A stretch of 64,000 bases of DNA, from positions 753 through 64,752 of the forward strand of contig MHZT01000043.1 in assembly GCA_001828855.1 (NCBI GenBank), given 5' to 3'. Each line of letters starts with the position of its first letter. The stretch's first letter is position 1. Below, in pieces: positions 46,468 through 62,072 of this stretch. Made by a program: the position numbers and the translations under genes. Source of the DNA: Rhodobacterales bacterium RIFCSPHIGHO2_02_FULL_62_130 (lineage in GTDB: Bacteria; Pseudomonadota; Alphaproteobacteria; Rhodobacterales; Rhodobacteraceae). Under the pieces are notes generated by a model. That model was not told the DNA's origin. It saw nothing but the letters and a program-made list of their open reading frames with translations, and did no database searches.

Positions 46468-46806
46468 AGACATGCAAACCGTCATACGGGCCGGAAGGCA
46501 GATAGCCTCGATTGCGGCTAGGCCGAAGGAGTGCTCGGACGCCGCGCCGCAGCATCACGGCTGCGGGAATCCTTAGGAAACATGAAGGCTTCGGCGGTGT
46601 GTTACAACTTCCAGCACATGCCATTTGACGTTTCTGCAACCTTATGCCTAAACGGCGCACCGCACGTCGGTCGGATTAGTGACGCCTTTACAATGGCTTC
46701 GCTGGGTCTTGGCTTGCCCGCGGTGCACTGCCTTCCGCAGCGTCATGAAAGAACGCCGGGCGTCGGTGCAAGGGGTATCGAGTACCATTTGTGGAGGCGT
46801 CATTTC

Positions 46807-47571
46807 ATGCAAGTCATTACCATCGTGCAGACCAAGGGCGGCTCGGGCAAGACCACGACCGCCATGCTTCTCGCATCTGCAGCACTGAACCTCGGGCGCA
46901 GCGTCACCCTGCTCGACGGTGATGTGAACGCTCAACTCGGCCGTTGGCGCGACAGTTTCGAACTGGCCACGTGGGAGAGTGCGCAAAAGCCCGACTGGCC
47001 GGAGAGTCTGGCGATCCTCTCGCCACCGGAAAGTGTTGAAGGGCTTCTGTCGCTCCTCGAGGCCGAGGAAGCGCGCGGCGTCGATCTCGTCGTGATCGAC
47101 ACCCGGCCTGGCACCCACACCGACACCGAGGACTTCTGCCTGATCTCCGATCTGGTGCTGATCCCAGCCCGCCCCGTCTACGCCGAATGGGAAATGACCC
47201 ATCGCGCCGTCCTCTGGATGGACGACCTCCGCGCCTCGATTGCCGAGGGCGAGCGGTTCCCGGCGGTTAGGGTCCTCGTCATGGACGCGGGGCCGAAGAT
47301 CATCGACGCGGCAACCCGGGAAGGGGGAATGGCTCAACTGCCAAAGCGCGACCGGGACGTGCTGCAAGAGATCCTGAGTCTCGACCATCTCGACGTTATC
47401 GTTCCGCATTCGAGGATCCTCGAACAACTTGGCTATCACGGCCCCCTTGGACCGGCGGCCCGCGCCAACGCCAAAGCACCCGGCGGTCGGCTGGTGGCGG
47501 ACGCCATCACACGCCAGCTTGAAGTTGCGGAACTTGTGCTGACCGGGATCGACGAGGTGATCCCTGCATGA
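46807..47571 (+). CDS. parA: ParA/MinD-like partition ATPase
   Basis: ATG 46807 gives MQVITIVQTKGGSGKTTTAMLLA (deviant Walker A). The length is 254 aa. Confidence 0.85.
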   Translation: MQVITIVQTKGGSGKTTTAMLLASAALNLGRSVTLLDGDVNAQLGRWRDSFELATWESAQKPDWPESLAILSPPESVEGLLSLLEAEEARGVDLVVIDTRPGTHTDTEDFCLISDLVLIPARPVYAEWEMTHRAVLWMDDLRASIAEGERFPAVRVLVMDAGPKIIDAATREGGMAQLPKRDRDVLQEILSLDHLDVIVPHSRILEQLGYHGPLGPAARANAKAPGGRLVADAITRQLEVAELVLTGIDEVIPA

Positions 47572-48707: not shown

Positions 48708-49139
48708 CGACAGGAAAGCCTTTCGTGGTTCGCGTGGCGACAGCAAAGCACCACTTCTGATGTCGGTAGATATGTTCTGATGGCGCCCCTGTCCATGACC
48801 GCAAGCCATGAGCGAATGACCGGAGGCCGGAATGGATGACGTCGTTAGACCCAGCTCCAAAAGCCCGACAATCGATCGTCGGCTGTGGCGTATCGACCGT
48901 GGAGACCGGGAACTCGTCGCGGAGCGGCATCGCACCGCCAGCGGTCGGTTCAGAACCGTGTGGCTGGTCCCGGAGGAAACCCTGCGTGGCGTCCTCTGGG
49001 TCGAGGTTATCGAAGGAACCCCAGCCGGTCCGTCGCTATGACCCATCAGCTGTCTGAATCGGACCGCCCGGATCGATTCAGAAATGCAATTGGACTTGGA
49101 GAGCGGCAAGGCGGAGTCTCTGCGGGGGGGAGGACCACC

Positions 49140-49400
49140 ATGGCTCTGGCACATCTGCACCGCATCGACCCTGAGGCCAACATGGCGCGGTTCTACTGCA
49201 TCGATGTTGGGGCGACGCTGTTAGGAGACGTCTCCGTCTTGCGGACCTGGGGCCGGATCGGAACGCATGGACGGACAAGACTCGAGACTTGCGCCACCGT
49301 GGAAGAAGCGGAGAGGGCAGCATCTCAAACCCTTCGACAGAAGATGCGGCGGGGCTATCTGCCTGCCGGCCAAATGCTGCCGCCAGACCTTGCGCTGTGA
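49140..49400 (+). CDS. WGR-domain protein
   Basis: The sequence HLHRIDPEANMARFYCIDVGATLLGDVSVLRTWGRIGTHGRTRLETCATVEEAERAASQTLRQKMRRGY matches the WGR pattern. GGAGG lies 7 nt upstream of ATG 49140. Confidence 0.7.
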   Translation: MALAHLHRIDPEANMARFYCIDVGATLLGDVSVLRTWGRIGTHGRTRLETCATVEEAERAASQTLRQKMRRGYLPAGQMLPPDLAL

Positions 49401-49406
49401 GATCTG

Positions 49407-49769
49407 TTAGGCCTTACGCTGAAGCCTGCCATCCAGCTCGGCACCGACCTCGATGGCGATCCGCTCATGGGTGACGTCGGCCTGCACGACCGCACTCGGC
49501 GCGAGCTGAACGCTTCGCGCTGAGACCGTGCCGGAGACCGCCCCAAGCACGACGAGGTCGTGGGCGACGATGGAACCTTCAACACGACCTGAACCAGCCA
49601 CGGTGATTTCCGGCGCCCGCAATGAGCCAATTACGTTGCCTCGCACCTCGATCGGTCCACTGGAGGTGGCATCGCCTTCGACCACAAGGTCCTGCGCGAA
49701 GACGCTGCGGCGAGCGTTCGAACTGGCCGGGTCCGGCCAACTGTCGAGGTCGCCATTTGGGGTCTTCAT
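49407..49769 (-). CDS. Bactofilin-family (polymer-forming cytoskeletal) protein
   Basis: It shows beta-helix repeats (VVEGDATSSGPIEVRGNVIGSLRAPEITVAGSGRVEGSIVAHDLVVLGAVSGTV). The length is 120 aa. Confidence 0.7.
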   Translation of the reverse strand: MKTPNGDLDSWPDPASSNARRSVFAQDLVVEGDATSSGPIEVRGNVIGSLRAPEITVAGSGRVEGSIVAHDLVVLGAVSGTVSARSVQLAPSAVVQADVTHERIAIEVGAELDGRLQRKA

Positions 49770-50332: not shown

Positions 50333-50386
50333 AAATGGGTGTAATTGGGTTCCGAATTGGGTTGCAGGAAATGGGTGTTATTGGGT
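50333..50386 (+). repeat. 18-bp direct repeat AAATGGGTGTWATTGGGT x2 just upstream of the Fic gene (candidate operator)
   Basis: The copies at 50333-50350 and 50369-50386 match at 17 of 18 positions. Extra ATTGGGT/ATTGGAT copies lie between and after them. The patch is AT-rich. Confidence 0.5.
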
Positions 50387-50398
50387 ATAAAATTGGAT

Positions 50399-51448
50399 AT
50401 GATCCAAACTCAGACGCTCCGCATCACCCCGACCTTTCTCTCGATCATCGCCGAGATCGACGAGTTCAAAGGCGCATGGCGCGCACTCGGAAGCCTCGCC
50501 CCCGAGCGTCTGTCCGCCTTACGCCGCGTCGCCACCATCGAGAGCATCGGCTCTTCGACACGCATCGAGGGAAGCCGGCTCTCCGATAAGGAGGTTCAGC
50601 GTCTGCTCTCCAATCTCGACATCCAGACCTTCTCGACCCGGGACGAAGAGGAGGTCGCTGGCTACGCTCAGGTCATGGACACAGTCTTCGCCTCGTGGCG
50701 CGACATCGATGTGACCGAGAACCATATCCGCCAGTTACACCGGGACCTCCTGCGGCACAGCAGCAAAGACCAGCGACATAGGGGGGCCTGGAAGACCGCG
50801 CCAAACTCGATCGCAGCTTTCGACGAGGCAGGGCGGCAACTTGGCGTGGTGTTTGAGACCGCCAGCCCCTTTGACACGCCGGGCCGCATGGCTGAACTGA
50901 TCGACTGGTACAACGCCGCCACCCAGGACCATGATCTGCATCCGCTGCTACTGATCGGAATCTTCGTCGTGGTATTTCTCGAAATCCATCCGTTCCAGGA
51001 CGGCAACGGTCGTCTCAGCCGGATCCTGACCACCTTGCTGCTTTTGCGCTCAGGCTATGCCTATGTCCCGTACTCATCCCTCGAAAGCGTGATCGAGCAA
51101 AGCAAAGAGGCCTATTACCTGGCACTTCGGCAGACCCAGGGGACGATCAGGTCCGACACTCCGGACTGGGGTCCCTGGCTCGGCTTCTTCCTGTCTGCAC
51201 TACAGCGCCAGATGCTTCGATTGCGCGCGAAAGTTGAGCGTGAACGGCTGTTGATGGGCAGCCTGCCGGAAGTTTCCGCGCAGCTTCTCGACCTCGTGCG
51301 CGATCATGGTCGCCTGACAATCGGCGACGCCGAGCGCCTGACCGGCCAGAATCGCAACACGCTGAAACAGCACTTCCGCACACTTGTCGCGGATGGCCAC
51401 CTGAGCCTGAACGGGGCCGGGAGGGGGGCCTGGTATTCACTCCGATAA
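50399..51448 (+). CDS. Fic-family protein with N-terminal inhibitory motif and C-terminal winged helix
   Basis: It has the Fic motif HPFQDGNGRLSR, an inhibitory-helix-type motif STRIEG ([ST]xxxE[GN]), and a C-terminal wHTH-like tail. Confidence 0.85.
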   Translation: MIQTQTLRITPTFLSIIAEIDEFKGAWRALGSLAPERLSALRRVATIESIGSSTRIEGSRLSDKEVQRLLSNLDIQTFSTRDEEEVAGYAQVMDTVFASWRDIDVTENHIRQLHRDLLRHSSKDQRHRGAWKTAPNSIAAFDEAGRQLGVVFETASPFDTPGRMAELIDWYNAATQDHDLHPLLLIGIFVVVFLEIHPFQDGNGRLSRILTTLLLLRSGYAYVPYSSLESVIEQSKEAYYLALRQTQGTIRSDTPDWGPWLGFFLSALQRQMLRLRAKVERERLLMGSLPEVSAQLLDLVRDHGRLTIGDAERLTGQNRNTLKQHFRTLVADGHLSLNGAGRGAWYSLR

Positions 51449-51589: not shown

Positions 51590-52147
51590 TCAGTCCTGGA
51601 CAGGCGAGCGCCTGATGGACATAGTCCATGCAACGTTAGTGGACTCTTCTAGAAAAAGGATTGCGTCAAACGAAGCTAGTTGCGCCCCGCGTTCGCTTGC
51701 ATAGGTCCGCTTGGAGAACCGCTTGTATCCAGTGCTTGGCCTTTGAATAAGACCATGCCATCTACCGTCACGCTCGAAGATGGTGACGTGAAAACCACGT
51801 TCACTGATAACCAAATTGCCCTGTCGCGACCGGCGCCATGCCTTGCGGTCAGGCCAACCAGCACGCCGCCGGGCCGCATTCTTCATCAACGCTTCGCGCC
51901 GCCGAGCGCGTTCGACATCCTGTTCCATATGGCCGGCGCATATGCAGCCGCAGTGCAGAATTTCGGGAAAGTCCGGGTGCTGCATGGCATGGACATATCG
52001 AATGTCCTGCCGCTCGCACATCTCGCAAACGGCCGCAGGGGCGCCAAGGTCTTCGACACCGACACAGGTCCAGCCTTTGTGGGGAACGCCATGCATTGAC
52101 CATTTGCCAAAGCCGCCGACGCCAGGAGCCTCGTCAAGTTCGGTCAT
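51590..52147 (-). CDS. Hypothetical Cys/His-rich protein, third gene of the XRE-ImmA operon
   Basis: The length is 185 aa. It contains CEMCERQDIRYVHAMQHPDFPEILHCGCICAGH (putative Zn site). The C-terminal half (GFHVTIFERDGRWHGLIQ...) could be a small DNA-binding fold. Its start overlaps the ImmA stop (ATGA). Confidence 0.55.
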   Translation of the reverse strand: MTELDEAPGVGGFGKWSMHGVPHKGWTCVGVEDLGAPAAVCEMCERQDIRYVHAMQHPDFPEILHCGCICAGHMEQDVERARRREALMKNAARRRAGWPDRKAWRRSRQGNLVISERGFHVTIFERDGRWHGLIQRPSTGYKRFSKRTYASERGAQLASFDAILFLEESTNVAWTMSIRRSPVQD

Positions 52148-53043
52148 CGACGAAAGCGTGGCGTCCAGCGCGCCTCCATGCCTTCGTCGGACTCTTCAAA
52201 TTCGTCGGCATCCTCGTAGGTGTCGTCGACGATCTGCGCACAGGAAAGAACGGTCAACACGCGGTCGTAGCGGCCGAGATCGACGACTTGTTCGACCGTG
52301 CGCACGGTGCGATCCCCACCGAACCAGTCGAGAATATCGGTCTCGATTTCTTCGCGGCGGCCTTGCCGTTCGGCGGCTGGCCGTGCGGCGACCGATGCGG
52401 TGAGCGTGCCCGTCGGCAGAGCTGCGCCCTTGCGGAGCCAGTTCTGGCCCTTCAGCTGCTTCAAGGCCTCGGATTTGAAGCAGTAGTCAACCCGGCCCTG
52501 ACGGCTGACGACGATGGCGGCGGCATCGTCGGTCTCGTTAATGTACCGGATGGCAGATGCCGTGAGCGAGGCTTTTGCCTCGCTGCGGATTGCCTCCACA
52601 CTCGGCAACCCTTCTCGCGCCCGTCTCAAGATCGGGCGAATTAGCGAGGTCGGCATCAGAAGGCCTGCCGAAAAATAGTCTGCCTCCCGTTCGTAGGGTT
52701 CCTCCGAGACGAACCCGGCCCTTGAACGATGCACTCCGCGGTCGAAGGGGATATGGTCGAGATGCCCATCGACAAAATAGTGCCCGAATTCATGGCCGAT
52801 GCTGAACCGCTCGAAGCCCTCGTTGTCGGTGTGGGTGGCGTACATGATGCCGAACTGATCGCCGTAGCGCATCAGCATGCCCGAGACACCCTCGGCCCTG
52901 CGGTCCATTTCACGCAGATGGATGCCGACAGCCTGAGCCAAAGCGTCCAGATCGACCGGAAGCGTCAACAGTCCGTGTTCCTGGAGCACGAGTTCGGCTC
53001 GGCGCATAAGCTGCTTTTGTTTCAGATCGGGGTTGCCGGTCAT
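52144..53043 (-). CDS. ImmA/IrrE-family zinc metallopeptidase (CapP-like)
   Basis: It has the HExxH motif in SIGHEFGHYFVDGH. The length is 299 aa. Its start overlaps the XRE stop (ATGA). Confidence 0.8.
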   Translation of the reverse strand: MTGNPDLKQKQLMRRAELVLQEHGLLTLPVDLDALAQAVGIHLREMDRRAEGVSGMLMRYGDQFGIMYATHTDNEGFERFSIGHEFGHYFVDGHLDHIPFDRGVHRSRAGFVSEEPYEREADYFSAGLLMPTSLIRPILRRAREGLPSVEAIRSEAKASLTASAIRYINETDDAAAIVVSRQGRVDYCFKSEALKQLKGQNWLRKGAALPTGTLTASVAARPAAERQGRREEIETDILDWFGGDRTVRTVEQVVDLGRYDRVLTVLSCAQIVDDTYEDADEFEESDEGMEARWTPRFRR

Positions 53044-53402
53044 TTCTTCCCGGCTTCCCTGTCATGCTTCTCGGCTAGGAAGCGCATGAAGTCGGCGGCC
53101 TGCCGTCGATTCTCGTCGTTGAGCTTCTGCATGTCGCGGTAAAGCGGATCGGCCTCGGCCGCGCCCTCGGGATTGTCTGTGCGCCCAAGCAGGAAATCTG
53201 TGGTCACGGAGAGTGCGTTGGCCAGTTTGCGGAGGCTATCGAATGACGGCTTGCGGGTACCGGCCTCGAAATGTGCGATGGAGCTGGGCGGCAGGCCGCT
53301 GTCCTTGGCGAGGGCGGCTTGGCTCATCTGGCGCAGGCTCTCTCGCGCAGCGCGCAGTCGTTCCCTGAAGATATCCGATGGCTTCTCGTGTTCAATGGTC
53401 AT
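53040..53402 (-). CDS. XRE-family HTH repressor (CapH/ImmR-like)
   Basis: ATG 53402 starts the gene. The HTH is LRQMSQAALAKDSGLPPSSIAHFEAGTRKPSFDSLRKLANAL. The length is 120 aa. Confidence 0.8.
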   Translation of the reverse strand: MTIEHEKPSDIFRERLRAARESLRQMSQAALAKDSGLPPSSIAHFEAGTRKPSFDSLRKLANALSVTTDFLLGRTDNPEGAAEADPLYRDMQKLNDENRRQAADFMRFLAEKHDREAGKK

Positions 53403-53423
53403 GGCGTTTTCGACATGTTGATA

Positions 53424-53473
53424 TTGACGTCTTGCGAACGTCCCCCTATATTCCCGACATACATGGCATGTCG
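53424..53473 (+). promoter_or_regulatory. Sigma70-like promoter TTGACG-17-TATATT with downstream operator palindrome CGACAT-N7-ATGTCG
   Basis: The -35 is at 53424-53429, the -10 at 53447-53452 and the palindrome at 53455-53473. A third CGACATG copy lies at 53411-53417. AGGAGG at 53513-53518 precedes ATG 53524. Confidence 0.6.
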
Positions 53474-53523
53474 AGGCCGCCAATGGCAAGGGCCTCACTG
53501 CCTAACAGGCATAGGAGGCCAAT

Positions 53524-54018
53524 ATGGCAGCAGAGCAGAACGGACACGACAACGGTACCTTCCACATTAGCGTGGGCGATGCCGAGCTGAATTTCCGGCC
53601 GGTACAGATCGACGATCCGGTTCCGACCGGCCGGCAGATCCTCGAAGCCGCCGGCGTGCGCATCCCCGAGGAACATCTGGTGTTCCAGCTCCTGCGGGAC
53701 GGCGAGCTCGAAGAGCTGCGCCAGGACGAGACGACCGATCTGCGCGGCGGTCGGGCTGAGCGCTTCCTGATCTTTCCGGGGGCCGAGTCCTTTCGGATCG
53801 AACTGGACGGCCAGGTGCTGGAATGGGGTGCCTGCGCGATCAGCGGGCGGGTGTTGAAGACGATCGCAAAGGTCGATCCGAAGACCTACGGCGTCTGGCT
53901 TGAAGTGCGCGGCGCCGAGGATCGGCCGATCGGCGACACCGAGCTGGTGCGGCTCGATGGCAAGGGGCTGGAACGCTTCTTCACGGGCATCAGCCAGACT
54001 ACGGAGGGTGGGGCATGA
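53524..54018 (+). CDS. Tandem beta-grasp (multiubiquitin-type) ubiquitin-like protein ending ...TTEGG-A
   Basis: The length is 164 aa, with two repeats of a roughly 70-aa Ub-like pattern. The C-terminus has a di-glycine followed by a single Ala. Confidence 0.75.
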   Translation: MAAEQNGHDNGTFHISVGDAELNFRPVQIDDPVPTGRQILEAAGVRIPEEHLVFQLLRDGELEELRQDETTDLRGGRAERFLIFPGAESFRIELDGQVLEWGACAISGRVLKTIAKVDPKTYGVWLEVRGAEDRPIGDTELVRLDGKGLERFFTGISQTTEGGA

Positions 54019-54395
54019 GCTTCCTCCCGACAGCCGACCGGCGCTATCTTGAGGAGCGGGGGCTGGCCTTCCGGGAAGTGGACGATGGCGGCCGGAAGGG
54101 CGTCATCCTTCCCGGCTTCGCCCTGCCGGCGGCGAAATTTCAGGTTGTCGAAGCCGATATCCTGATCCTCCTTCCGTGCGGCTATCCCGACACGGCGCCA
54201 GACATGTTCTACGCGCTGCCCTGGCTGAGCCTCGTGCGATCCAGCCGCTATCCCAACTGCGCGGATCAGCCCCAGCAGTTTGAGAGTCAAAATTGGCAGC
54301 GCTGGTCCCGACATAATAATAACTGGCGGCCGGGCATCGACGGCATCTGGACCATGCTCAAGCGGGTCGAACAGGCGCTGCAGGAGGCCGCGTGA
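54015..54395 (+). CDS. Prokaryotic E2/UBC-like protein
   Basis: The length is 126 aa. LLPCGYPDTAPDMFY...RYPNC resembles the UBC YPxxPP ... HPN...C layout. Its start overlaps the Ubl stop (ATGA). Confidence 0.7.
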   Translation: MSFLPTADRRYLEERGLAFREVDDGGRKGVILPGFALPAAKFQVVEADILILLPCGYPDTAPDMFYALPWLSLVRSSRYPNCADQPQQFESQNWQRWSRHNNNWRPGIDGIWTMLKRVEQALQEAA

Positions 54396-55792
54396 TGCAG
54401 ATTGATGTGACTCTGCAGGCGCGTCATGCAACGGCGCTGCGCGAATTGCTCCAGCGTCCGGACGGGATCGAGGCCGCGGCCTATGTCATGTTTGGGCGCA
54501 ACGTCGTCGGGATTGACCCGTGGTCCCGTCGCCGGCGGCTTCGGCTGGTTTCTCATCAAGTCGTTCCGGTGCCGGCGGGCGACGAGATTTCGGCGAGCCC
54601 CCGCCATGTTACCTGGTCGACTGCAACCTTCGTCAGTCTGTGTCGGCAGGCGGCCTACCGGGGTCTAGTGCCAGCGATCGTGCACAGCCATCCTGCCGGC
54701 ATGCGGGCCTTTTCGCGGCAGGACGACGTCAACGAGCGCGATCTCTACCGGTTGCTGCGCAACCGTAACGGTACTGACGCGATTATGGCGAGCGTGTTGC
54801 TCGCCGGCGACGATCATTTCATGGCGCGTGCCTGGTTCGATGACAAGGAACCGGTCGCGGCCGAAATCGTTCGGAGCATCGGCTCCCGGCTGCTCCATTT
54901 CGGCGGCGAGTCCGGCGCCTCGAACGCGGCACTGGTGCGGCAAGCACTGTTGTTCGGCGAAGCGGTTAACAACCGTCTAGCATCGATGCGGGTAGGCATC
55001 GTCGGCTGCGGAGGCACAGGCAGCGCCACGGCGATGCTGTTGGCCCGGCTCGGCGTCGGTCAGCTCGCCTTGTTTGACGACGATATCGTCGAAATTTCCA
55101 ATCTGAATCGCCTCCATGGCGCGCGCCGGGCGGATGCCGACGCCATGCGGCCAAAGGTCGAGGTGCTCGCGCGCGAGATCACGGAATTGGGCCTCGGCGT
55201 GCGTGTCCACACCCATCGCGGCTGGATCGAGAATGAAGCCGCGCGGGATGCGCTCAAGGCCTGCGACGTGATCTTCGGCTGCACGGATGACCATGCAGGC
55301 CGGCTGTTTCTCAATCGCTTTTCGCATTTCTATCTGATCCCGGTCATCGACATGGGACTTGCCATCGAGCCGGCGTCGGCTGACATGCGGGACATGTCGG
55401 CGCGGGTCACTGTGCTTACGCCGGGCGCACCCTGCCTCTCCTGCCGGGGCGTTGTCGACCCCAAAGCCGCGAGCGAGGAGGCGCTGCGTCGGGCAGCGCC
55501 GGAAGAATACGAGCGACAGAAGCGCGAGGCCTATGTCCGCGGCGGTCAGAATCCGGCGCCGGCCGTGGTGACCTTTACGACCGAAACTGCGACGCTCGCC
55601 GTCAATGAGCTGCTGCAGGGCCTGACCGACTATCGCGGGGAAGGGGGCTGGGCCTGGGAGCGTGTTCGGCGGCTGGACCGCGGCATCGAGCGGAAGCGCG
55701 GCGCTATCCGGTCACCGCACTGTCCGATTTGCGCGCGCGAGGACTATTGGGGCCGGGGCGACATGGACCCCTTCATGGATCGGATCGGCTGA
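54392..55792 (+). CDS. JAB/JAMM peptidase - ThiF/E1 adenylyltransferase fusion
   Basis: The JAMM motif is an exact HxHx7Sx2D match (HSHPAGMRAFSRQD). The E1 Rossmann motif is GIVGCGGTGS, followed by NLNR. Zn-site pairs CLSC and CPIC are present. The start is GTG 54392 or ATG 54395 and overlaps the E2 stop. Confidence 0.85.
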   Translation: MMQIDVTLQARHATALRELLQRPDGIEAAAYVMFGRNVVGIDPWSRRRRLRLVSHQVVPVPAGDEISASPRHVTWSTATFVSLCRQAAYRGLVPAIVHSHPAGMRAFSRQDDVNERDLYRLLRNRNGTDAIMASVLLAGDDHFMARAWFDDKEPVAAEIVRSIGSRLLHFGGESGASNAALVRQALLFGEAVNNRLASMRVGIVGCGGTGSATAMLLARLGVGQLALFDDDIVEISNLNRLHGARRADADAMRPKVEVLAREITELGLGVRVHTHRGWIENEAARDALKACDVIFGCTDDHAGRLFLNRFSHFYLIPVIDMGLAIEPASADMRDMSARVTVLTPGAPCLSCRGVVDPKAASEEALRRAAPEEYERQKREAYVRGGQNPAPAVVTFTTETATLAVNELLQGLTDYRGEGGWAWERVRRLDRGIERKRGAIRSPHCPICAREDYWGRGDMDPFMDRIG

Positions 55793-56190
55793 TGCGCATC
55801 TTTAGCCACCTTTGCCGCTGGACTGCCGAGCGGTGCCGGTTGATCGGTCGCACCGATCTGGTCGCGCGGGTCAGCCCCCGGCATCCATCACCGGACCAGC
55901 TCCAGACGGGGTCACTGGTCGTCGTGCGTGATGGCACCCTCGATAAATGGGCCTGTTTCCGCTGTCCGGGAGGGTGCGGCGAGAAGATTCAGCTCTCCCT
56001 GAACCAGGCGCGGCGACCCCGTTGGGCGGTGCGTTTCGACTGGCTGCTGCGGCCGACCATCGAACCCTCAGTGCGCCAGCTCAATGCCTGCCGCTGCCAC
56101 TTCTGGGTCAAGCGGGGCCAAGTCCATTGGTGTCACGATAGCGGTCACCGTCAGGTGCCGAAACGGACCAACGGCGCGTGGGGACGTTGA
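55792..56190 (+). CDS. Cys-rich DUF6527-like protein (putative zinc-binding partner of the Ubl system)
   Basis: ATG 55792 shares one nucleotide with the E1 stop (TGATG). The sequence reads CFRCPGGCGEKIQLSL...PTIEPSV...CRCHFWVKRGQVHWC. Confidence 0.65.
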   Translation: MRIFSHLCRWTAERCRLIGRTDLVARVSPRHPSPDQLQTGSLVVVRDGTLDKWACFRCPGGCGEKIQLSLNQARRPRWAVRFDWLLRPTIEPSVRQLNACRCHFWVKRGQVHWCHDSGHRQVPKRTNGAWGR

Positions 56191-57086
56191 TAGACCCCGA
56201 GAGTGAGCGCCTGGTAGCTGTTGCTGAAACTCTCGAAGCGGAAGACGTGGGCATCGCCATTGTCGTCGGTGAGCACAATTTCGGCTTCGCCGAGCGGACC
56301 GGCCCGACGTGGCTGGCAATAGCCGGAGACGAGCTCGAAAACCTCGACTTCGTCGACCCCGCTGAAGCCGGCGGCAAAGGCCGGCGAGCGCACCAAATGT
56401 TCGCAGGGAGTGGCCGCATCGAAATCGGCCGATCGACGCACCGGGTGCGGATGGTCGGAAATCATGCCGACAATCGGTACAGACGCGCCCCAAGTCTCAA
56501 TAGAGCGCCAAAATGTCGTGGTGTAGGTGTTGCCAAAGACCGGCTTGAGCGCGCGCACGGCTTCGATGGAGGGTGCGTGGTCGCGGGCTTCGACGGTGAA
56601 GCGGTCCCGGAGGAAAAGCAGTCGACTGGCCGCGAAATTGGCTTCGGCCTCAACTTGGTCATGGCAGTTCTGGTTCAGGGTGAAGCGATCGTCGCCGAGC
56701 ATAGCCCCTTCATGCCAGGGGATGATACTGTGGCCGATCTCGTGCGCCTCGTGCCAGCGGTGCTTCAGTTCGGGTTGCGACTGATCGAGCAGAATACGCT
56801 TGTTGTCAGGTAGATAGAGTGCCCGCAAATCGAATTTGGCGACAGCCTCGAAGAAGAGCATAGGACGCCGGATGATCTGCTTGCTCGCCATGCGCATGCG
56901 GCTGATAACCTCATCAGCAAGCGAGGGATCGTCTTTCCGGAAATAGGTCAGATCGAGCGACAGCAGATCGCGGACGACCCGGAGGTCGAGCGGTGGTTCG
57001 GGATTCCCGAGACGCGCCAAGACGCGCTCGACGCGTTCGTCGATTTCCTGCTGTGTTTTGCGTCTCAGGATGTAGTTCCGAGCCAT
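56151..57086 (-). CDS. ImmA/IrrE-like zinc metallopeptidase (second copy)
   Basis: The HExxH motif lies in WHEAHEIGHSIIPWHEG. ATG 57086 is preferred with GGGGAA upstream; the 57092 codon is TTG. Its 3' end overlaps the DUF6527-like gene by 40 bp convergently. Confidence 0.7.
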   Translation of the reverse strand: MARNYILRRKTQQEIDERVERVLARLGNPEPPLDLRVVRDLLSLDLTYFRKDDPSLADEVISRMRMASKQIIRRPMLFFEAVAKFDLRALYLPDNKRILLDQSQPELKHRWHEAHEIGHSIIPWHEGAMLGDDRFTLNQNCHDQVEAEANFAASRLLFLRDRFTVEARDHAPSIEAVRALKPVFGNTYTTTFWRSIETWGASVPIVGMISDHPHPVRRSADFDAATPCEHLVRSPAFAAGFSGVDEVEVFELVSGYCQPRRAGPLGEAEIVLTDDNGDAHVFRFESFSNSYQALTLGVYQRPHAPLVRFGT

Positions 57087-57115
57087 CGTCAATTCCCCAG
57101 GCCGCCGGCCGCCCG

Positions 57116-57610
57116 TTACTTCGCCTTGTCGCGCAGAACGGAAACGAGGCCGTCAAAGGCGGCCTGCTCCTCGGCTGTCAGGGCTGTGATGGCCGTAGAC
57201 CGTGCCGCATAACGGACAGCTTCCTCCATGGCATGTGTGTCCTTCGGCGAAGCCAGCCCCGCCAGCTCCATCAGTCGAGCCTGCGATACATCGAAGACCT
57301 CGGACAGCCGCCAGATCGTGCGCAGCTCCGGCTCGTGACCGCCGTCCTGCTCGATGCTCATCAGCTCGCCGACCTCGATATGGGCGTCATCGGCGAGCTT
57401 TTCGATCGACCAGCCACGCTGGCGACGCGCCATGTTGACAAAGCGGGCGAAGGCCAGACGGGTTTCTTCGCCGCGGAGCCAAAAGGTTTCGTCCGGCACA
57501 TGGGGACGGGCGGAAAGGGGGCCTGCGCCGGGCGTCGACGTCTCATCGAGCGCCGCCCTGGCGAGGGCCCAGTCAGCAGTCGTGCTGTAGGTCATTGCGC
57601 TTCTCCTCAT
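57116..57610 (-). CDS. XRE-family HTH protein (second copy)
   Basis: The HTH region is FVNMARRQRGWSIEKLADDAHIEVGELMSIEQDG. Its start overlaps the GNAT stop (ATGA). Confidence 0.7.
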   Translation of the reverse strand: MRRSAMTYSTTADWALARAALDETSTPGAGPLSARPHVPDETFWLRGEETRLAFARFVNMARRQRGWSIEKLADDAHIEVGELMSIEQDGGHEPELRTIWRLSEVFDVSQARLMELAGLASPKDTHAMEEAVRYAARSTAITALTAEEQAAFDGLVSVLRDKAK

Positions 57611-58230
57611 AAGAACGTCCTGGCTCGCTCCGTCGTGATCTCGAAATAGGGTAGCAGCCCACGATATTCATTCGGATTGGTGCCAAGATTGATGAAGCCG
57701 CAGCGCTCGTAGAAGGTGACCGCCTGCGGCAAGGAATGAAGGCCGACACGACCGTGGAAGCCTTCGTCGAAGCTCCTCTGGATTGCGGTTCGGATTAGCA
57801 CCTGACCAATGCCGCGATAAAGCGGTGGATCGGCATAGGGTTCGTTCCAGTTCCAGGGAGCGATTTCGAGGTAGTCGACATAAACCAGCGGCTTGCCCAT
57901 CTGATCGTCGAGGCGCGCCATGCGGCTCGCCAGATCGAGCCGCATCATGCCCTGGGTCACATCCCGGCATACGACGCTGTAACCCGTGTGGCCGAGCAGT
58001 CCGCGCACTTCGTCGATCTTTGCGCGCCAGTCCCAATGCCAGCTCTGCGGCCAGTCGAGACCCTGCCGGGTTACCCCATTGTCGGCAAGCCGCCGGAGAT
58101 AGCCCTCCAGGGTTCTTCGCCACTGGAATTGCCAATCCAACAGCTGTCGTTCGCCGATCGTATCGAGCAATTCAGCCTCAACTGGCTGCCGTGAGGACAC
58201 ATCAATGATAAAGACGGAATACGATGTCAT
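57607..58230 (-). CDS. GNAT-family N-acetyltransferase
   Basis: ATG 58230 overlaps the RHH stop. The region VYVDYLEIAPWN...YRGIGQVLIRTAIQRSFDEGFHGRVGLHSLPQAVTFYERCGF is acetyl-CoA binding-like. The length is 207 aa. Confidence 0.7.
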   Translation of the reverse strand: MTSYSVFIIDVSSRQPVEAELLDTIGERQLLDWQFQWRRTLEGYLRRLADNGVTRQGLDWPQSWHWDWRAKIDEVRGLLGHTGYSVVCRDVTQGMMRLDLASRMARLDDQMGKPLVYVDYLEIAPWNWNEPYADPPLYRGIGQVLIRTAIQRSFDEGFHGRVGLHSLPQAVTFYERCGFINLGTNPNEYRGLLPYFEITTERARTFL

Positions 58231-58436
58231 AGCATCATGATCTCCGACTTCTCTCTGGTCTGGTCGTCCTCGAAGTATAGCTTGCCGCCACGCTCCACCC
58301 GGGTGTCGATCATCTGGTAAAGTCGCAGCGCCTGCCGCATCAGGCCGGTCTTGCTGAGATCCTTCTTGGCGCACAAGGCCTCTAGGGCGCTCATCTCAGC
58401 CTCCGTGAGGTTGAGCGTCATGGTCTTCTTGCTCAT
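58227..58436 (-). CDS. Ribbon-helix-helix (CopG/Arc-like) protein
   Basis: ATG 58436 is preceded by GAGGA with 5-nt spacing. The sequence MSKKTMTLNLTEAEMSALEALCAKKDLSKTGLMRQALRLY fits a beta-strand, helix, helix pattern. The length is 69 aa. Confidence 0.65.
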   Translation of the reverse strand: MSKKTMTLNLTEAEMSALEALCAKKDLSKTGLMRQALRLYQMIDTRVERGGKLYFEDDQTREKSEIMML

Positions 58437-58460
58437 GTCGATCCTCATTGAACGCATGTT

Positions 58461-58513
58461 TTCTAGCTGTTTCGCATTCATCTGTCAAGTAAAGAATAGC
58501 TAAAACATAGCTA
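58461..58513 (-). promoter_or_regulatory. Promoter TTGACA-17-TAGAAA with ATAGCTA tandem repeats (candidate RHH operator)
   Basis: On the minus strand the -35 is at 58488-58483 and the -10 at 58465-58460. ATAGCTA occurs at 58496-58502 and 58507-58513 (11-bp period). TAGCT at 58464-58468 overlaps the -10. Confidence 0.5.
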
Positions 58514-58595: not shown

Positions 58596-59000
58596 TCAGA
58601 ACGGGATTTCGTCGTCGCGATCGACCAGTTCGGGAGCATCGCCCTCGGTCGCCTTGGGGCGGCTGAGGAAGTCGACCTTCTCGGCAATGATTTCGCAGCC
58701 GTAGCGGTCGACGCCCGCCGCATCGGTCCACTTCGTGTAGTGGATGCGGCCCTGGACCAGGACCTTCATGCCCTTCTCGCAGTTCTCGGCGACCGACTTG
58801 CCGAGCCCGTTGAAGCATGTGATGCGATGCCATTCGGTGTCCATCACACGGTAGCCGTGCTCGTCGCGGACCGCGCGGTCTTCCGAGAGGCGGGGGCGCG
58901 AGGTGGCGAGGGTGAAGTGGGTGATCTTCGTGCCGCCTTGCGTGGTGCGGGCTTCCGGGGCCTGACCGATGTTGCCGGCGAGGATGACGATGTTCTGCAT
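58596..59000 (-). CDS. ssb: Single-stranded DNA-binding protein (short, mobile-element type)
   Basis: It begins MQNIVILAGNIGQAPEARTTQGGTKITHFTLATS (OB fold) and ends in the acidic tail DRDDEIPF. The length is 134 aa. Confidence 0.9.
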   Translation of the reverse strand: MQNIVILAGNIGQAPEARTTQGGTKITHFTLATSRPRLSEDRAVRDEHGYRVMDTEWHRITCFNGLGKSVAENCEKGMKVLVQGRIHYTKWTDAAGVDRYGCEIIAEKVDFLSRPKATEGDAPELVDRDDEIPF

Positions 59001-59427
59001 GGTGGTTCTCCTAGATTTCGCTGAAGGGACCATCCCTTCGACAAGACCCGTCAGAAGCCTGTCGGGAGACGTCCGCACGGCTGGGCCATGGACCAGACGG
59101 AAACCCCCGAGGGCCCGGGGTGGCGCGGGCAGGACGCTTTGCGGCCAACACGGCCAGGGCAGGAGTTGGGGTTGCGGGCAGGAAACCGAACAGACTTAGG
59201 GGATTGTCAGTCGAAGGGGAGGTGCCTCAGCCGGATCACAGGGGGAGAAACCCAAGCAGACACGCTCAGACCGATCTCCTCCGGCAATGTCAGGCCCAGG
59301 AGGAACCATCCCGGGAATGGAGCATGGGATCACCACGCCCCCTACCCAAGCCCCCTGCCCCGCTCGTCTCCTGCCGCGCGGGCTCGGCACGACTACGCCT
59401 GCGGTATTGAATCAACCGGAGCACCCG

Positions 59428-59748
59428 ATGCCTGATTTCAACCTGGCGGCCATGTCGCTCGCAGAACTGCGCGATTTGCAGAAGTCCGTGGCCAAGGCCA
59501 TTTCCACCTTCGAAGTACGGCAAAAGGCGGAGGCCCGCGAAAAGGTCGAGATGCTCGCCAAAGAGCTCGGCTTCACTCTTGCCGAACTGGCAGGACTGGG
59601 GGAGCCGAAACGCAAGCGGTCGCCCTCGACTAAAACCTTCCGACATCCGGAGAACCCGACCCTCACCTGGTCCGGGCGGGGACGCAAGCCGGGCTGGTTT
59701 GCCGCCCATGTCGATCCAGGCAATAACCCCGATGACCTGCTCGGCTGA
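59428..59748 (+). CDS. H-NS-family nucleoid-associated protein
   Basis: It has an N-terminal coiled coil (MSLAELRDLQKSVAKAISTFEVRQKAEAREK) and a C-terminal DNA-binding loop TWSGRGRKPGW. The length is 106 aa. Confidence 0.8.
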   Translation: MPDFNLAAMSLAELRDLQKSVAKAISTFEVRQKAEAREKVEMLAKELGFTLAELAGLGEPKRKRSPSTKTFRHPENPTLTWSGRGRKPGWFAAHVDPGNNPDDLLG

Positions 59749-60115
59749 ACGCGGGGAACGGGGGCGGTCGGACTACCCCCAAAGATATGCCTCCCCCGTT
59801 TGAAAGAATTGCTGACAACGCGTCGGCGCGGTGTCTATTTCATTCCAGCCGACGGACAACTGAAATGCTTGGAGGGGTGAAGTCTGGCGGCTTCAGAGTG
59901 AGCCTCGGCCCCCAACCAAACTGAAAGGGCGTAAACCAACCGCAGAGCACAACAAATAGCGCAAATCTCACTAGGATGCCTATATCTTGGCACTTTGGGC
60001 GCGCCAGACTCAGACTTGATGTGTGACCCGCCCGTGCGCTCCCTTGCTTTACGCAAAAAAATGGCATATCTTTCCTTCATAACGCAATCACAGAATCGCG
60101 CGAACGGGTGCTCGA

Positions 60116-60817
60116 ATGGCAGACTTCGATTGGAAACATCTTCTGAAACGCGGCCTGATCCTCGCGTTGGAGGATCGGACGCGGGCGGAAACGTTGAAGG
60201 CTTCCCTGCTGGTGCGCGACCATGCTGGGCTGGACAAGAAGCGCGCGCGCGAACTCGAAGGCCAGGCGCGTTTTCGGATGGTGGAGCAAGGCTTCGAAGA
60301 GGTCTGCGTCCTTTTCGGCGGTCAGCCGCTTGTTGGTGGTGTCATCCCGAACAGCAGCCTGAAGATCTTCCAGCCGTTCATGCGGTTCGGCGGTGATGGC
60401 CCGGGTGTCATCTTTGGCCTCGCCGCGATGCCCGAACGCAGCAAGTTGCCGAACAAGAACCGTTCCCGTCTGGCCGGTGTGACGCTGAACTTCAATCTGA
60501 CCCCAAGTTTTGACTTCGACGGCAGCGGCCCGAAGCCCGGGGATATCTTCGTCCTCTTCTTGGTTGCACGTGACCGCGAACAGTCTGGCAAACTGGATGA
60601 GATTGCGATTGGCGTGATTGATGCGATCTACGAGCAGTTTCTGTTTTACGAACGCCTTGACAAGTTCCTTGCTGATGATGCCGATGCCGCTGAACCGGTC
60701 CCCGCTTCGATTGTGTCGCCGTCCGAGACCGGGCTGGTGCGCTTGAAGGCGAAGGTGAAACCGTTTGTCCCCCCCGAGTCGCCGCCGGAGGTGGACGACG
60801 AAACAGGGAAGGCATGA
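60116..60817 (+). CDS. Hypothetical protein (no recognisable family)
   Basis: The length is 233 aa. It is a clean ORF in a lower-GC block, 32 nt upstream of the HTH-ImmA fusion gene. The C-terminal tail is acidic and Pro-rich. Confidence 0.5.
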   Translation: MADFDWKHLLKRGLILALEDRTRAETLKASLLVRDHAGLDKKRARELEGQARFRMVEQGFEEVCVLFGGQPLVGGVIPNSSLKIFQPFMRFGGDGPGVIFGLAAMPERSKLPNKNRSRLAGVTLNFNLTPSFDFDGSGPKPGDIFVLFLVARDREQSGKLDEIAIGVIDAIYEQFLFYERLDKFLADDADAAEPVPASIVSPSETGLVRLKAKVKPFVPPESPPEVDDETGKA

Positions 60818-60849
60818 TCGGTTTCTTGCGATACCGGCGGGAGGATTGA

Positions 60850-62049: not shown

Positions 62050-62072
62050 TCTTCTAACTGAGAGAAGGGGGC

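What the first reader, a model, noticed from the sequence alone, without database searches (positions are those of the whole stretch)
51590..53523. CapH/CapP-like XRE + ImmA/IrrE pair divergent from the Ubl operon, with a readable promoter/operator and an extra Zn-finger gene
Seen: a three-gene minus-strand operon with ATGA overlaps lies head-to-head with the Ubl operon across 121 bp. It encodes a 120-aa XRE protein, a 299-aa HEFGH metallopeptidase and a 185-aa Cys/His-rich protein. On the Ubl side there is a near-consensus promoter, TTGACG-17nt-TATATT. Immediately downstream lies the palindrome CGACAT-N7-ATGTCG at 53455-53473. A third CGACATG copy sits next to the XRE start codon. This geometry fits a repressor occluding both divergent promoters. 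Established: XRE repressor plus ImmA/IrrE protease pairs act as damage- or ssDNA-triggered derepression switches. Examples are ImmR/ImmA of ICEBs1, DdrO/IrrE, and CapH/CapP upstream of CBASS and other defence operons. Inference: the Ubl operon is probably kept silent and induced by proteolysis of the XRE protein. That supports a stress- or infection-responsive role. The third gene is not part of the classical pair and is unexplained.
Basis: partly seen in the sequence, partly recalled or inferred. Interest (0 to 1): 0.7.

Follow-up and report, generated by a model that had tools for sequence, protein, structure and literature searches.

The report
CapH/CapP damage switch on a Bub operon
This is a real but already-described kind of switch: a repressor and its protease that probably keep a bacterial ubiquitin-like (Bub) defence operon silent until DNA is damaged, here with two clear repressor-binding sites and an extra, uncharacterised zinc-protein gene that has joined the regulator operon.

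Summary
The XRE protein and the HEFGH peptidase are sequence-level members of the CapH/CapP family (PADLOC capH 2e-26; capP 2.5e-61 full length; best PDB hit CapP 7t5t). The divergent operon is a Bub (6E/DUF6527) ubiquitination-like operon. This pairing is published: Lau et al. 2022 noted it, and Corbett-lab work in 2024 counts CapH+CapP at 168 of 544 Bub operons.

Two things go beyond the literature I could read. One lies on the capH start codon. The other begins 15 bp after the -10. They sit 66-68 bp apart and bracket the promoter, with an extra half-site at the predicted transcription start. The same layout recurs in CBASS-linked CapH/CapP loci from Acinetobacter, Burkholderia, Agrobacterium and metagenomes.

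Second, the third gene belongs to a large unannotated family (about 2,600 clusters). Its members are usually found beside, or fused to, Gabija GajB-type helicases, and often beside small WGR-domain genes. It follows capP only in one Paracoccaceae clade and was lost at least twice there.

Verdict: a new member of a known kind, of moderate-to-low interest. The third-gene family is the open question.

The parts
53040..53402 (-). capH: 120-aa XRE-family repressor with an N-terminal HTH and a C-terminal helical oligomerisation region. The candidate CapP cleavage site is PLY88|R89.
   Evidence: Pfam HTH_3 4.5e-14. PADLOC capH 2e-26 over 3-102 of 103 profile positions. The HTH region from the GLP motif to the FD motif (about residues 36-55) is nearly unchanged in relatives 68% identical overall (P39 and I42 vary), and DP(L/I)YRD is conserved. 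The cleavage site is inferred by analogy with F82|R83 of E. coli CapH.
52144..53043 (-). capP: 299-aa ImmA/IrrE-type Zn metallopeptidase (HEFGH at residues 84-88) with a CapP-type C-terminal region, no cysteine-switch Cys, and an acidic C-terminal tail.
   Evidence: Pfam Peptidase_M78 9.8e-11. PADLOC capP 2.5e-61 over 3-240 of 242 profile positions. The only PDB hit is 7t5t 'CapP', E 4.8e-10, aligned over residues 8-266. The only cysteines are C188 and C268. dN/dS is 0.08-0.31.
51590..52147 (-). Third gene: 185-aa protein with an N-terminal Zn-binding domain (C28, C41-x2-C44, C68/C70, H53, H57), a long basic helix, and a C-terminal four-strand-plus-helix domain. It belongs to a large unannotated family.
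   Evidence: There is an ATGA overlap with capP. No Pfam, PADLOC, PHROGs or NCBIfam hit. 663 homologues and 2577 clusters at 50% identity. AF2 pLDDT 89.7. No significant Foldseek match. dN/dS 0.08-0.33. Family members are fused to UvrD/GajB-type helicase, RNase H and (weakly, Pfam Toprim_2 E 0.0011, below the curated cut-off) a Toprim-like region, and have GajA/GajB and WGR neighbours.
53400..53417 (.). Operator O_A: CATGGCG-TTTT-CGACATG, an 18-bp palindrome. Its left CATG contains the capH start codon, and it ends 6 bp before the -35 of the Bub promoter.
   Evidence: It is the only zero-mismatch match to CATGNCGNNNNCGNCATG in the window. A site with 0-2 mismatches sits at the same position in all 13 other CapH loci examined, including CBASS loci. 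Its position matches the 22-bp CapH-binding site upstream of the -35 reported for E. coli MS115-1.
53424..53452 (+). Bub operon promoter: -35 TTGACG (53424-53429), 17-nt spacer, -10 TATATT (53447-53452). The predicted transcription start is about 53459.
   Evidence: 10 of 12 consensus positions. Both hexamers are conserved while the spacer is not. The transcription start is inferred, not mapped.
53455..53460 (.).
   Evidence: A half-site at the same N7 offset is found in the Bub relatives and in CBASS loci (AGACAT, AGACAG). In L096 it covaries with its partner (CGCCAT-N7-ATGGCG).
53467..53484 (.). Operator O_B: CATGTCG-AGGC-CGCCAAT, with 2 mismatches to the 18-bp consensus, starting 67 bp after O_A and lying at about +8 to +26 of the Bub transcript.
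   Evidence: The O_A to O_B start-to-start spacing is 66-68 bp in every locus examined, even though the intervening sequence is unrelated. In L096 O_B is a perfect palindrome, CATGGCGAACCCGCCATG.
53445..53474 (-). Candidate capH promoter (inference only): -35 TCGACA (53474-53469, inside O_B), 18-nt spacer, -10 TATAGG (53450-53445, back-to-back with the Bub -10).
   Evidence: Read from the sequence. Analogous elements read by eye in the sequences printed: TCGACA-N18-TATAAT in L099, TCGACA-N18-TATACT in L101, and TCGACA-N19-TATAGG in L095. The CC of CCTATA is invariant across the Bub clade. The consensus scan did not call this promoter.
53524..56190 (+). Regulated Bub (6E/DUF6527) operon: BubA Multi_ubiq 53524-54018, BubB Prok-E2_E 54015-54395, BubCD JAB-ThiF 54392-55792, BubE DUF6527 55729-56190.
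   Evidence: Pfam hits: 2.5e-35, 2.1e-49, 8.1e-41 (ThiF) with 5.6e-08 (Prok-JAB), and 4.7e-25. The operon type is described in PMC11601596.

Best explanation
The genes at 53040-53402 and 52144-53043 are a CapH/CapP module. CapH is an XRE-type repressor. CapP is the ImmA/IrrE-type metallopeptidase that cleaves it. Together they control the divergent Bub (bacterial ubiquitination-like, 6E/DUF6527) operon.

Inferred mechanism. CapH oligomers occupy two 18-bp palindromes, O_A at 53400-53417 and O_B at 53467-53484, plus a half-site at the transcription start (53455-60). These sites bracket the -35 and -10 of the Bub promoter, so the promoter is shut. They also overlap the capH start codon and the probable capH promoter, so capH-capP-gene3 would be autoregulated. 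DNA damage or infection produces single-stranded DNA, which activates CapP. CapP then cuts CapH in the first helix of its C-terminal oligomerisation domain, probably at Y88|R89. DNA binding is lost and both transcription units are derepressed.

The third gene (51590-52147) is not part of the classical switch. It is a stand-alone member of a large unannotated family of zinc-binding proteins. The fusions and neighbours of that family (UvrD/GajB helicases, RNase H, a weak Toprim-like match, WGR) point to nucleic-acid binding. In one Paracoccaceae lineage it was captured at the 3' end of the capHP operon, so it would be co-induced with Bub.

What is shown: family membership, gene order, conservation of the sites, and the distribution of the third gene. 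What is inferred: binding, cleavage, the inducing signal, and the role of the third gene.
For: Family membership:
- PADLOC capH 2e-26 and capP 2.5e-61, both essentially full length.
- The only PDB hit of the peptidase is CapP 7t5t, aligned over 8-266.
- HEFGH at residues 84-88.

Organisation:
- capH then capP, divergent from the target operon, which is the arrangement described for CapH/CapP.
- The pair travels with Bub in Jiella, Tabrizicola, Paracoccus and metagenome loci.
- Published association: 168 of 544 Bub operons.

Operators:
- The repeats, -35 and -10 are invariant while the spacer is not.
- In L096 both arms changed together to CGCCAT/ATGGCG.
- At one fixed position a match of at most 2 mismatches in 12 specified bases has a chance of about 4e-5 (my own calculation).
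- O_A is in the same place as the experimentally bound 22-bp site of E. coli CapH, and E. coli CapH forms a dimer-of-dimers tetramer.
- The CapH HTH region is nearly unchanged where the half-site is unchanged.

Third gene:
- capP lies directly upstream in only 4 of the 80 genome loci holding a family member.
- It is reduced to a remnant in L093 and L094 and truncated in Jiella, while capHP-Bub stays intact or largely so.
- It is under purifying selection where it is present.
- Fusions and GajA/GajB/WGR neighbours.
Against: - No experiment bears on this locus.
- The published CapH work reports one 22-bp site, not two. It found tetramerisation dispensable for repression in cells, so the two-site or looping picture may overstate what is needed.
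- O_B in this window has 2 mismatches and a 1-nt irregularity in its right arm.
- The 67-bp spacing is about 6.4 helical turns, which is not an integral number. It may reflect only fixed promoter geometry.
- No capH promoter was called by the consensus scan, and capH has no visible Shine-Dalgarno sequence.
- CapP here lacks the cysteine switch, as do about two thirds of CBASS CapPs, so how it is kept inactive is unknown.
- Bub operons have not been shown to protect against phage.
- For the third gene, a second independent adjacency to a Bub operon (L055) argues that the link to Bub may not be accidental.
Confidence: 0.7

Rival explanations
1. The third gene is an integral third component of the regulatory switch. 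For example, it could be a nucleic-acid sensor or adaptor that presents ssDNA or DNA ends to CapP, or that modulates CapH cleavage. In that case this clade would have a three-protein CapH/CapP/X switch.
For: It is translationally coupled to capP by an ATGA overlap, and this overlap is conserved in L002, L011 and L014. It is under purifying selection equal to that of capP. The family's fusions to helicase and RNase H, a weak Toprim-like match, and its WGR neighbours, point to nucleic-acid recognition. CapP is activated by ssDNA.
Against: capP lies directly upstream in only 4 of 80 genome loci with a family member. None of the CBASS-linked or other CapP loci examined has it. It decayed in L093 and L094 and in Jiella while capH and capP stayed intact.
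Confidence: 0.15
2. The third gene works with the Bub pathway itself, for example as an E3-like or substrate-recruiting zinc-finger adaptor, or as a conjugation target, rather than with the regulator.
For: There are two independent adjacencies to Bub operons in different positions. One is after capP in the type I-like Paracoccaceae clade. The other is 63 bp after bubE in a type II Bub operon of Sulfuricaulis, L055, where the Bub proteins are only about 32% identical. Bub operons have no known E3.
Against: About 75 of the 80 loci have no Bub operon. The dominant partners are GajB-type helicases and WGR genes. The gene was lost from Bub loci that otherwise look intact (L093, L094). No RING-like or E3-like structural match was found.
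Confidence: 0.1
3. The XRE/peptidase pair is an ImmR/ImmA-type immunity module of the surrounding conjugative element. On this view it controls excision or transfer, and its position next to the Bub operon is incidental.
For: The window looks like a conjugative-element accessory or leading region, with SSB, an H-NS-like gene, Toprim and a ParA-like gene. It carries two further XRE/M78 modules within 10 kb. The best PDB hit of the HTH domain alone is an ICEBs1-type Xre regulator.
Against: The peptidase matches the CapP profile over its full length, whereas the other M78 gene in the window matches only the peptidase core. The pair and the Bub operon move together as a unit into different surroundings (L013, L014, L093 and L094 lack the neighbouring modules). 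The shared promoter region has the same operator layout as CBASS-linked CapH loci.
Confidence: 0.05
4. The repeats in the intergenic region are chance or mere promoter-sequence features and are not repressor-binding sites.
For: A perfect 6-bp inverted repeat is expected in 29% of shuffled 121-bp sequences. TCGACAT is common throughout this GC-rich window.
Against: The repeats are invariant where the neighbouring spacer has diverged. The same two-site layout, at the same spacing, occurs in independent CBASS promoters with otherwise unrelated sequence. The arms show compensatory change in L096.
Confidence: 0.03

Closest known systems
CapH/CapP of CBASS (E. coli MS115-1 and Thauera sp. K11; Lau et al. 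2022, bioRxiv 10.1101/2022.04.27.489752; PDB 7t5t, 7t5u)
   Same: - Gene order capH then capP, divergent from the regulated operon.
- An XRE HTH with a C-terminal helical domain.
- An HExxH peptidase with a CapP-type C-terminal region.
- An operator immediately upstream of the -35.
- A conserved aromatic-Arg motif where E. coli CapH is cut.
- Direct relatives with about 60% CapH identity sit on type III CBASS operons and have the same operator layout.
   Different: - The target is a Bub operon, not CBASS.
- The switch loop has no cysteine.
- CapP carries an acidic 30-residue C-terminal tail.
- A second operator downstream of the -10 and an extra half-site are evident here and in the CBASS relatives, but are not described in the paper text I could read.
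- A third gene is appended to the operon.
CapH+CapP-associated Bub (6E/DUF6527) operons (PMC11601596 and PMC11601603, 2024)
   Same: A Bub operon with a JAB-E1 fusion and BubE/DUF6527, regulated by a divergent CapH+CapP pair. This describes 31% of the 544 catalogued Bub operons.
   Different: BubA (Multi_ubiq) and BubB (Prok-E2_E) are separate, overlapping ORFs here, whereas the type I definition has a BubAB fusion. The extra gene after capP is not mentioned. I could not check whether this operon is in their Table S1, because the supplement is not held.
ImmR/ImmA of ICEBs1 and DdrO/IrrE of Deinococcus
   Same: The same logic applies: an XRE repressor is inactivated by a cognate M78 metallopeptidase on DNA damage.
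   Different: These are different sub-families. IrrE and ImmA did not appear as PDB hits at E <= 0.01, and only CapP did. They regulate a mobile element or a chromosomal damage regulon, not a defence-type operon.
Gabija (GajA/GajB) loci carrying a homologue of the third gene
   Same: The third-gene family is encoded directly after GajB (L008, L060, L074), convergent with GajB (L018 and relatives), or fused to a GajB-like helicase (P0171).
   Different: There is no Gabija gene in this window. Here the gene rides on capHP instead.

Membership tests
CapH (XRE-family repressor of CapH/CapP modules) | N-terminal XRE/Cro-type HTH domain | tested here: met
   Pfam HTH_3 4.5e-14 over residues 16-71. 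PADLOC capH 2e-26 covering 3-102 of 103 profile positions.
CapH (XRE-family repressor of CapH/CapP modules) | C-terminal helical dimerisation/tetramerisation domain containing the CapP cleavage site (F82|R83 in E. coli) | tested here: inconclusive
   The capH profile match extends through the C-terminal region. A conserved P(L/I)Y88-R89-D motif sits at the equivalent place. Oligomeric state and cleavage were not testable.
CapH (XRE-family repressor of CapH/CapP modules) | Binds the promoter region shared with the regulated operon | not testable with these tools
   Indirect support only. Conserved palindromic sites lie on the capH start codon and around the transcription start, and O_A lies where the E. 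coli CapH site lies, upstream of the -35.
CapP (ImmA/IrrE-type metallopeptidase of CapH/CapP modules) | Zn metallopeptidase domain with HExxH | tested here: met
   HEFGH at residues 84-88. Pfam Peptidase_M78 9.8e-11.
CapP (ImmA/IrrE-type metallopeptidase of CapH/CapP modules) | Central helical domain plus C-terminal GAF domain after the peptidase domain | tested here: met
   This rests on sequence only. The alignment to Thauera CapP 7t5t runs from residue 8 to 266, matching chain residues 13-274 of 291. The PADLOC capP profile is covered over 3-240 of 242 positions. No structure was predicted.
CapP (ImmA/IrrE-type metallopeptidase of CapH/CapP modules) | Internal cysteine-switch loop (present in only about 33% of CBASS CapPs, so not obligatory) | tested here: not met
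   Thauera C113 aligns to FDRGV, and there is no Cys before residue 188. A loop of similar length is present.
CapP (ImmA/IrrE-type metallopeptidase of CapH/CapP modules) | ssDNA-stimulated cleavage of the cognate CapH | not testable with these tools
   Needs biochemistry.
CapH/CapP module | capH then capP, upstream of and divergent from the regulated defence-type operon | tested here: met
   The arrangement is as described.
Bub operon, type I (6E.1) | [quoted passage not shown] | tested here: met
   Prok-JAB plus ThiF in one 466-aa protein, and DUF6527 at 4.7e-25.
Bub operon, type I (6E.1) | Ubl-E2 fusion protein (BubAB) | tested here: not met
   Multi_ubiq (53524-54018) and Prok-E2_E (54015-54395) are separate ORFs with a 4-bp overlap, here and in all close relatives.
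Third gene: any described protein family | Significant match to a curated family or a solved or predicted structure | tested here: not met
   No hit in Pfam, PADLOC, PHROGs or NCBIfam. PDB profile search best E 0.74. Foldseek best E 0.24 against PDB and 0.011 against BFVD.

The most novel reading that the evidence does not exclude
The third gene represents an undescribed, widespread family (about 2,600 clusters at 50% identity) of small zinc-binding proteins. On this reading they act as nucleic-acid-sensing accessory modules for defence systems. They are chiefly partners of, or N-terminal fusions to, Gabija GajB-type helicases. In this lineage one has been plugged into the DNA-damage-responsive CapH/CapP switch of a Bub operon. 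There it would help generate, recognise or respond to the DNA signal that triggers the system. A lesser novelty is that CapH/CapP modules in general use a conserved two-operator layout, 67 bp apart and bracketing the promoter, matched to the CapH tetramer.
Probability: 0.25. Interest if true: 0.6.

Novelty: new member of a known kind. Interest (0 to 1): 0.33.

Why it matters
The core of the finding, a CapH/CapP switch on a ubiquitin-like operon, is already in the literature. It adds one more example, in a variant with unfused BubA and BubB on a Paracoccaceae mobile element.

Two by-products are useful. [quoted passage not shown] This would let CapH regulons be predicted from sequence, and it would explain why CapH is a tetramer.

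Second, there is a large unannotated protein family tied by gene fusion and neighbourhood to Gabija helicases and other defence genes. It is a candidate new accessory component of bacterial immunity.

Tried and rejected
- I looked for the third protein in Pfam, PADLOC, PHROGs and NCBIfam and found nothing.
- A PDB sequence-profile search gave only a meaningless E 0.74 hit.
- Foldseek with a confident AF2 model gave no significant match in PDB or BFVD. The weak resemblances (MmoD, PUR-alpha, Sub1/PC4, DUF1508/YegP-like phage proteins) were not strong enough to use.
- One homologue carries the UniRef label 'HNH endonuclease'. I considered this and set it aside, because no HNH family or structure matched.
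- I considered the GTG start at 53498 for capH (152 aa). I rejected it because homologues and the family profiles begin at the ATG at 53402, and the extension would run across the conserved promoter.
- Counting TCGACAT or the degenerate palindromes across the whole window was uninformative, because the heptamer is common in coding sequence.
- A hairpin pair GAGGCC/GGCCTC/GAGGCC that could sequester the bubA ribosome-binding site is not conserved in L013 or L014. I dropped it.
- I tried to check the published Bub catalogue (Table S1) for this operon, but the supplement is not held.
- Literature searches for a Gabija/WGR link or for further CapH operator work found nothing relevant.
- The published version of Lau et al. 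(PMC9670203) is not held, so I used the preprint.
Full report
**1. What is in the sequence**

- Three minus-strand ORFs lie at 53040-53402 (120 aa), 52144-53043 (299 aa) and 51590-52147 (185 aa).
- Both junctions are ATGA overlaps, reading TCAT on the + strand at 53040-43 and 52144-47.
- The first ORF starts 121 bp from the ATG of a plus-strand operon.
- That operon encodes Multi_ubiq (53524-54018), Prok-E2_E (54015-54395), a JAB-ThiF fusion (54392-55792) and DUF6527 (55729-56190).
- The promoter-like site TTGACG-17-TATATT is at 53424-53452 and matches 10 of 12 consensus positions.
- The perfect palindrome CGACAT-N7-ATGTCG is at 53455-53473, and CGACATG is at 53411-53417.

Taken alone, the palindrome is weak evidence. 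29% of shuffled 121-mers contain a perfect 6-bp inverted repeat, and 4% contain one plus a third half-site copy.

**2. Identity of the pair**

The 120-aa protein matches the PADLOC capH profile almost end to end (2e-26). The 299-aa protein matches capP over 3-240 of 242 profile positions (2.5e-61). The only PDB sequence the peptidase finds is Thauera CapP (7t5t), aligned from residue 8 to 266. That span covers the peptidase domain and the C-terminal region beyond it. HEFGH is at residues 84-88.

The cysteine of the 'cysteine switch' is absent, because C113 of Thauera CapP aligns to FDRGV. This is also true of about two thirds of CBASS-linked CapPs. Gene order and divergent orientation are those that define CapH/CapP modules. 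By contrast, the second M78 peptidase in the window (56151-57092) matches only the peptidase core of the capP profile.

**3. This association is already known**

- The plus-strand operon is a Bub operon (formerly 6E/DUF6527). The Corbett laboratory showed these to be conjugation systems that work through oxyester intermediates, with BubE (DUF6527) acting as a serine protease (PMC11601596).
- The same paper states that 168 of 544 Bub operons (31%) carry a CapH+CapP pair.
- Type II Bil operons carry the pair too.

**4. The operator, re-read**

I aligned the intergenic region with relatives whose proteins are about 70% identical (L013, L014). The 17-nt spacer between -35 and -10 is scrambled. In contrast, TTCGACAT beside the capH ATG, the -35, CCTATA, the palindrome, a TGGCAAGG block (TGGCAAGGG in most loci) and the ribosome-binding site remain unchanged.

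More distant CapH relatives, about 60% identical, turned out to sit on CBASS operons: a type III operon in L095 and a cyclase-led operon, cut off by the contig end, in L096. That pattern is two 18-bp palindromes of consensus CATGnCG-N4-CGnCATG.

In the window:
- O_A is CATGGCGTTTTCGACATG at 53400-53417. It has no mismatch and is unique in the 64 kb.
- O_B is CATGTCGAGGCCGCCAAT at 53467-53484, with two mismatches.
- O_A contains the capH start codon in its left CATG and ends 6 bp before the -35.
- O_B begins 15 bp after the -10.
- The start-to-start distance between the two sites is 67 bp.

The distance is 66-68 bp in every locus examined. These include Acinetobacter baumannii pWM98-2 and Burkholderia ambifaria pBMC401 (type III CBASS) and an Agrobacterium fabrum plasmid (type II CBASS).

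It always lies 7 nt before the ATGTCG of O_B and falls on the predicted transcription start. In L096 both members of that pair have changed together, to CGCCAT-N7-ATGGCG, and O_B there is a perfect CATGGCGAACCCGCCATG. At a fixed position, a match with at most 2 mismatches in 12 specified bases has a chance of about 4e-5 (my own calculation). Its recurrence in several unrelated promoters is therefore not accidental.

O_A lies where Lau et al. found the single 22-bp site that E. coli CapH binds, upstream of the -35. They also showed that CapH is a dimer of dimers. The CapH HTH region is nearly unchanged wherever the half-site is unchanged.

I also note a possible leftward capH promoter: TCGACA inside O_B, an 18-nt spacer, and TATAGG back-to-back with the Bub -10. 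Equivalents are visible in the CBASS loci. This is reading by eye and the consensus scan did not call it.

**5. Likely mechanism**

Shown: family membership, the layout, and conservation of the sites.

Inferred from the published biochemistry of E. coli and Thauera CapH/CapP:
- CapH occupies O_A, h1 and O_B. This closes the Bub promoter and limits its own operon.
- ssDNA arising from damage or infection activates CapP.
- CapP cuts CapH at the start of its C-terminal oligomerisation domain. The conserved P-L/I-Y88-R89-D motif corresponds to F82|R83 of E. coli CapH.
- Both transcription units are then derepressed.

The strict spacing could reflect a tetramer that bridges both sites, or it could reflect only fixed promoter geometry. 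At 67 bp the spacing is about 6.4 helical turns, and tetramerisation was dispensable in E. coli cells.

**6. The third gene**

It has no match in Pfam, PADLOC, PHROGs or NCBIfam. It is nevertheless a real, conserved gene:
- 663 homologues were found in the first search.
- 2577 clusters at 50% identity match in the exhaustive search.
- 435 loci were found among GTDB species genomes, spread across Proteobacteria, Acidobacteriota, Gemmatimonadota, Planctomycetota and others.
- dN/dS is 0.08-0.33, the same as capP.

AlphaFold gives a confident model (pLDDT 89.7). It has an N-terminal zinc-binding beta domain whose invariant or near-invariant residues include C28, C41, C44, C70, H53 and H57. A long basic helix follows, and then a four-strand-plus-helix domain. 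Foldseek finds nothing significant in PDB or BFVD.

Its link to capP is narrow:
- capP is directly upstream in only 4 of 80 genome loci, all in the closest Paracoccaceae relatives.
- In L093 and L094 only a remnant survives after an intact capP.
- In Jiella the homology breaks inside the gene.

Elsewhere the commonest upstream neighbour is a small WGR-domain gene, in 17 of 60 loci at a gap of 0-10 bp. Other neighbours are defence genes such as AbiE, TIR, STAND, HEPN, McrBC and BrxL.

The strongest signal is Gabija:
- GajA-GajB-gene3 with an ATGA overlap in Mesorhizobium (L008).
- GajB directly upstream in L060 and L074.
- GajB convergent after the WGR-gene3 pair in Rhodobacterales.
- 12 of 80 loci have a GajB-like helicase within 6 kb.
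- There are predicted fusions of the domain to a GajB-like UvrD helicase and to RNase H, and a weaker sign of a Toprim-like region in another.

The window itself has no Gabija genes. One further Bub link exists. In Sulfuricaulis (L055) a homologue sits 63 bp after bubE of a distantly related type II Bub operon, which has a sigma-like gene and an M78 peptidase divergent from it.

My reading is that the family is a nucleic-acid-binding accessory module of defence islands, and that this clade has placed a copy under CapH control. I cannot exclude a direct role in the switch or in Bub conjugation.

**7. Verdict**

This is a new member of a known kind.

The modest additions are a sharper, comparative operator model for CapH and the recognition that the 'extra Zn-finger gene' belongs to a large, uncharacterised family linked to Gabija and other defence genes. 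None of the mechanistic steps has been tested for this locus. Bub operons themselves have no demonstrated biological role yet.

Noticed in passing
window 56151-58481 (minus strand): A second XRE (57116-57610) and M78 peptidase (56151-57092) pair lies in one overlapping minus-strand array with an RHH protein (58227-58481) and a GNAT acetyltransferase (57607-58374), which looks like a TacAT-type toxin-antitoxin pair. The 3' end of the peptidase gene overlaps bubE by 40 bp, convergently. The array accompanies the Bub unit in Jiella, L002, L011, L012, L091 and L092, but is absent from L013, L014, L093 and L094.
   Followed up: partly
window 60116-62049 (+): A 399-aa XRE-M78 fusion matches PADLOC 'RmrA' at 5e-209. 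It is preceded by a 233-aa ORF with no family match. This makes three XRE/M78 modules within 10 kb.
   Followed up: no
window 53524-54395: BubA (Multi_ubiq) and BubB (E2) are separate ORFs with an ATGA overlap, unlike the fused BubAB that defines published type I Bub operons. BubA ends TTEG-GA here and TTEG-VA or TTEG-AA in relatives. This suggests that a two-residue tail is trimmed to expose the glycine.
   Followed up: partly
third-gene family: L008, L018, L030, L031, L033, L042, L060, L074; proteins P0171, P0178, P0198, P0130, P0163: The unannotated family of the third gene is repeatedly encoded next to Gabija GajB (and GajA). Predicted proteins fuse it to UvrD/GajB-like helicases and RNase H; one (P0163) has a weak Toprim-like match. 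In Rhodobacterales it forms a tight pair with a small WGR-domain gene.
   Followed up: partly
L055 992-6510 (Sulfuricaulis sp. MAG): A type II Bub operon (DUF6791-ThiF and DUF6527) has a divergent sigma-70-like gene, an unknown 134-aa ORF and an M78 peptidase. A homologue of the third gene lies 63 bp after bubE.
   Followed up: partly
window 52144-52240 (CapP residues 268-299): CapP ends in a strongly acidic tail, DDTYEDADEFEESDEGME...RFRR, which lies beyond the region aligned to Thauera CapP and is conserved in L093 and L094. I speculate that it could mimic ssDNA or autoinhibit.
   Followed up: no
window 48885-49400 (+): A WGR-domain gene (Pfam 5.9e-19), the family most often paired with the third gene elsewhere, lies 2.2 kb away. 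It is separated from the third gene by a bactofilin gene (49407-49769) and a Fic gene (50345-51448). In L012 no ORF of at least 70 aa was called between the WGR gene and the third gene, about 650 bp apart and convergent.
   Followed up: partly
L001 (Jiella pelagia plasmid NZ_CP114028) 6001-11700: The Jiella copy of the locus is decaying. The third gene is truncated, bubA is split into two annotated ORFs, bubE is unannotated, and the second M78 gene is frameshifted. IS elements lie nearby.
   Followed up: partly
window 53473-53520: GAGGCC (53473), GGCCTC (53491) and GAGGCC (53515, inside the bubA ribosome-binding site) could form two mutually exclusive hairpins in the bub 5' leader. They are not conserved in L013 or L014.
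   Followed up: partly
window 46531-47571 and 58596-63944: The surroundings look like the accessory or leading region of a conjugative element: a ParA-like ATPase, SSB (58596-59078), an H-NS-like gene (59287-59748), a YspA/SLOG-domain protein (62073-63062) and a Toprim/DUF7146 protein (63372-63944). The closest relatives are Paracoccaceae.
   Followed up: no
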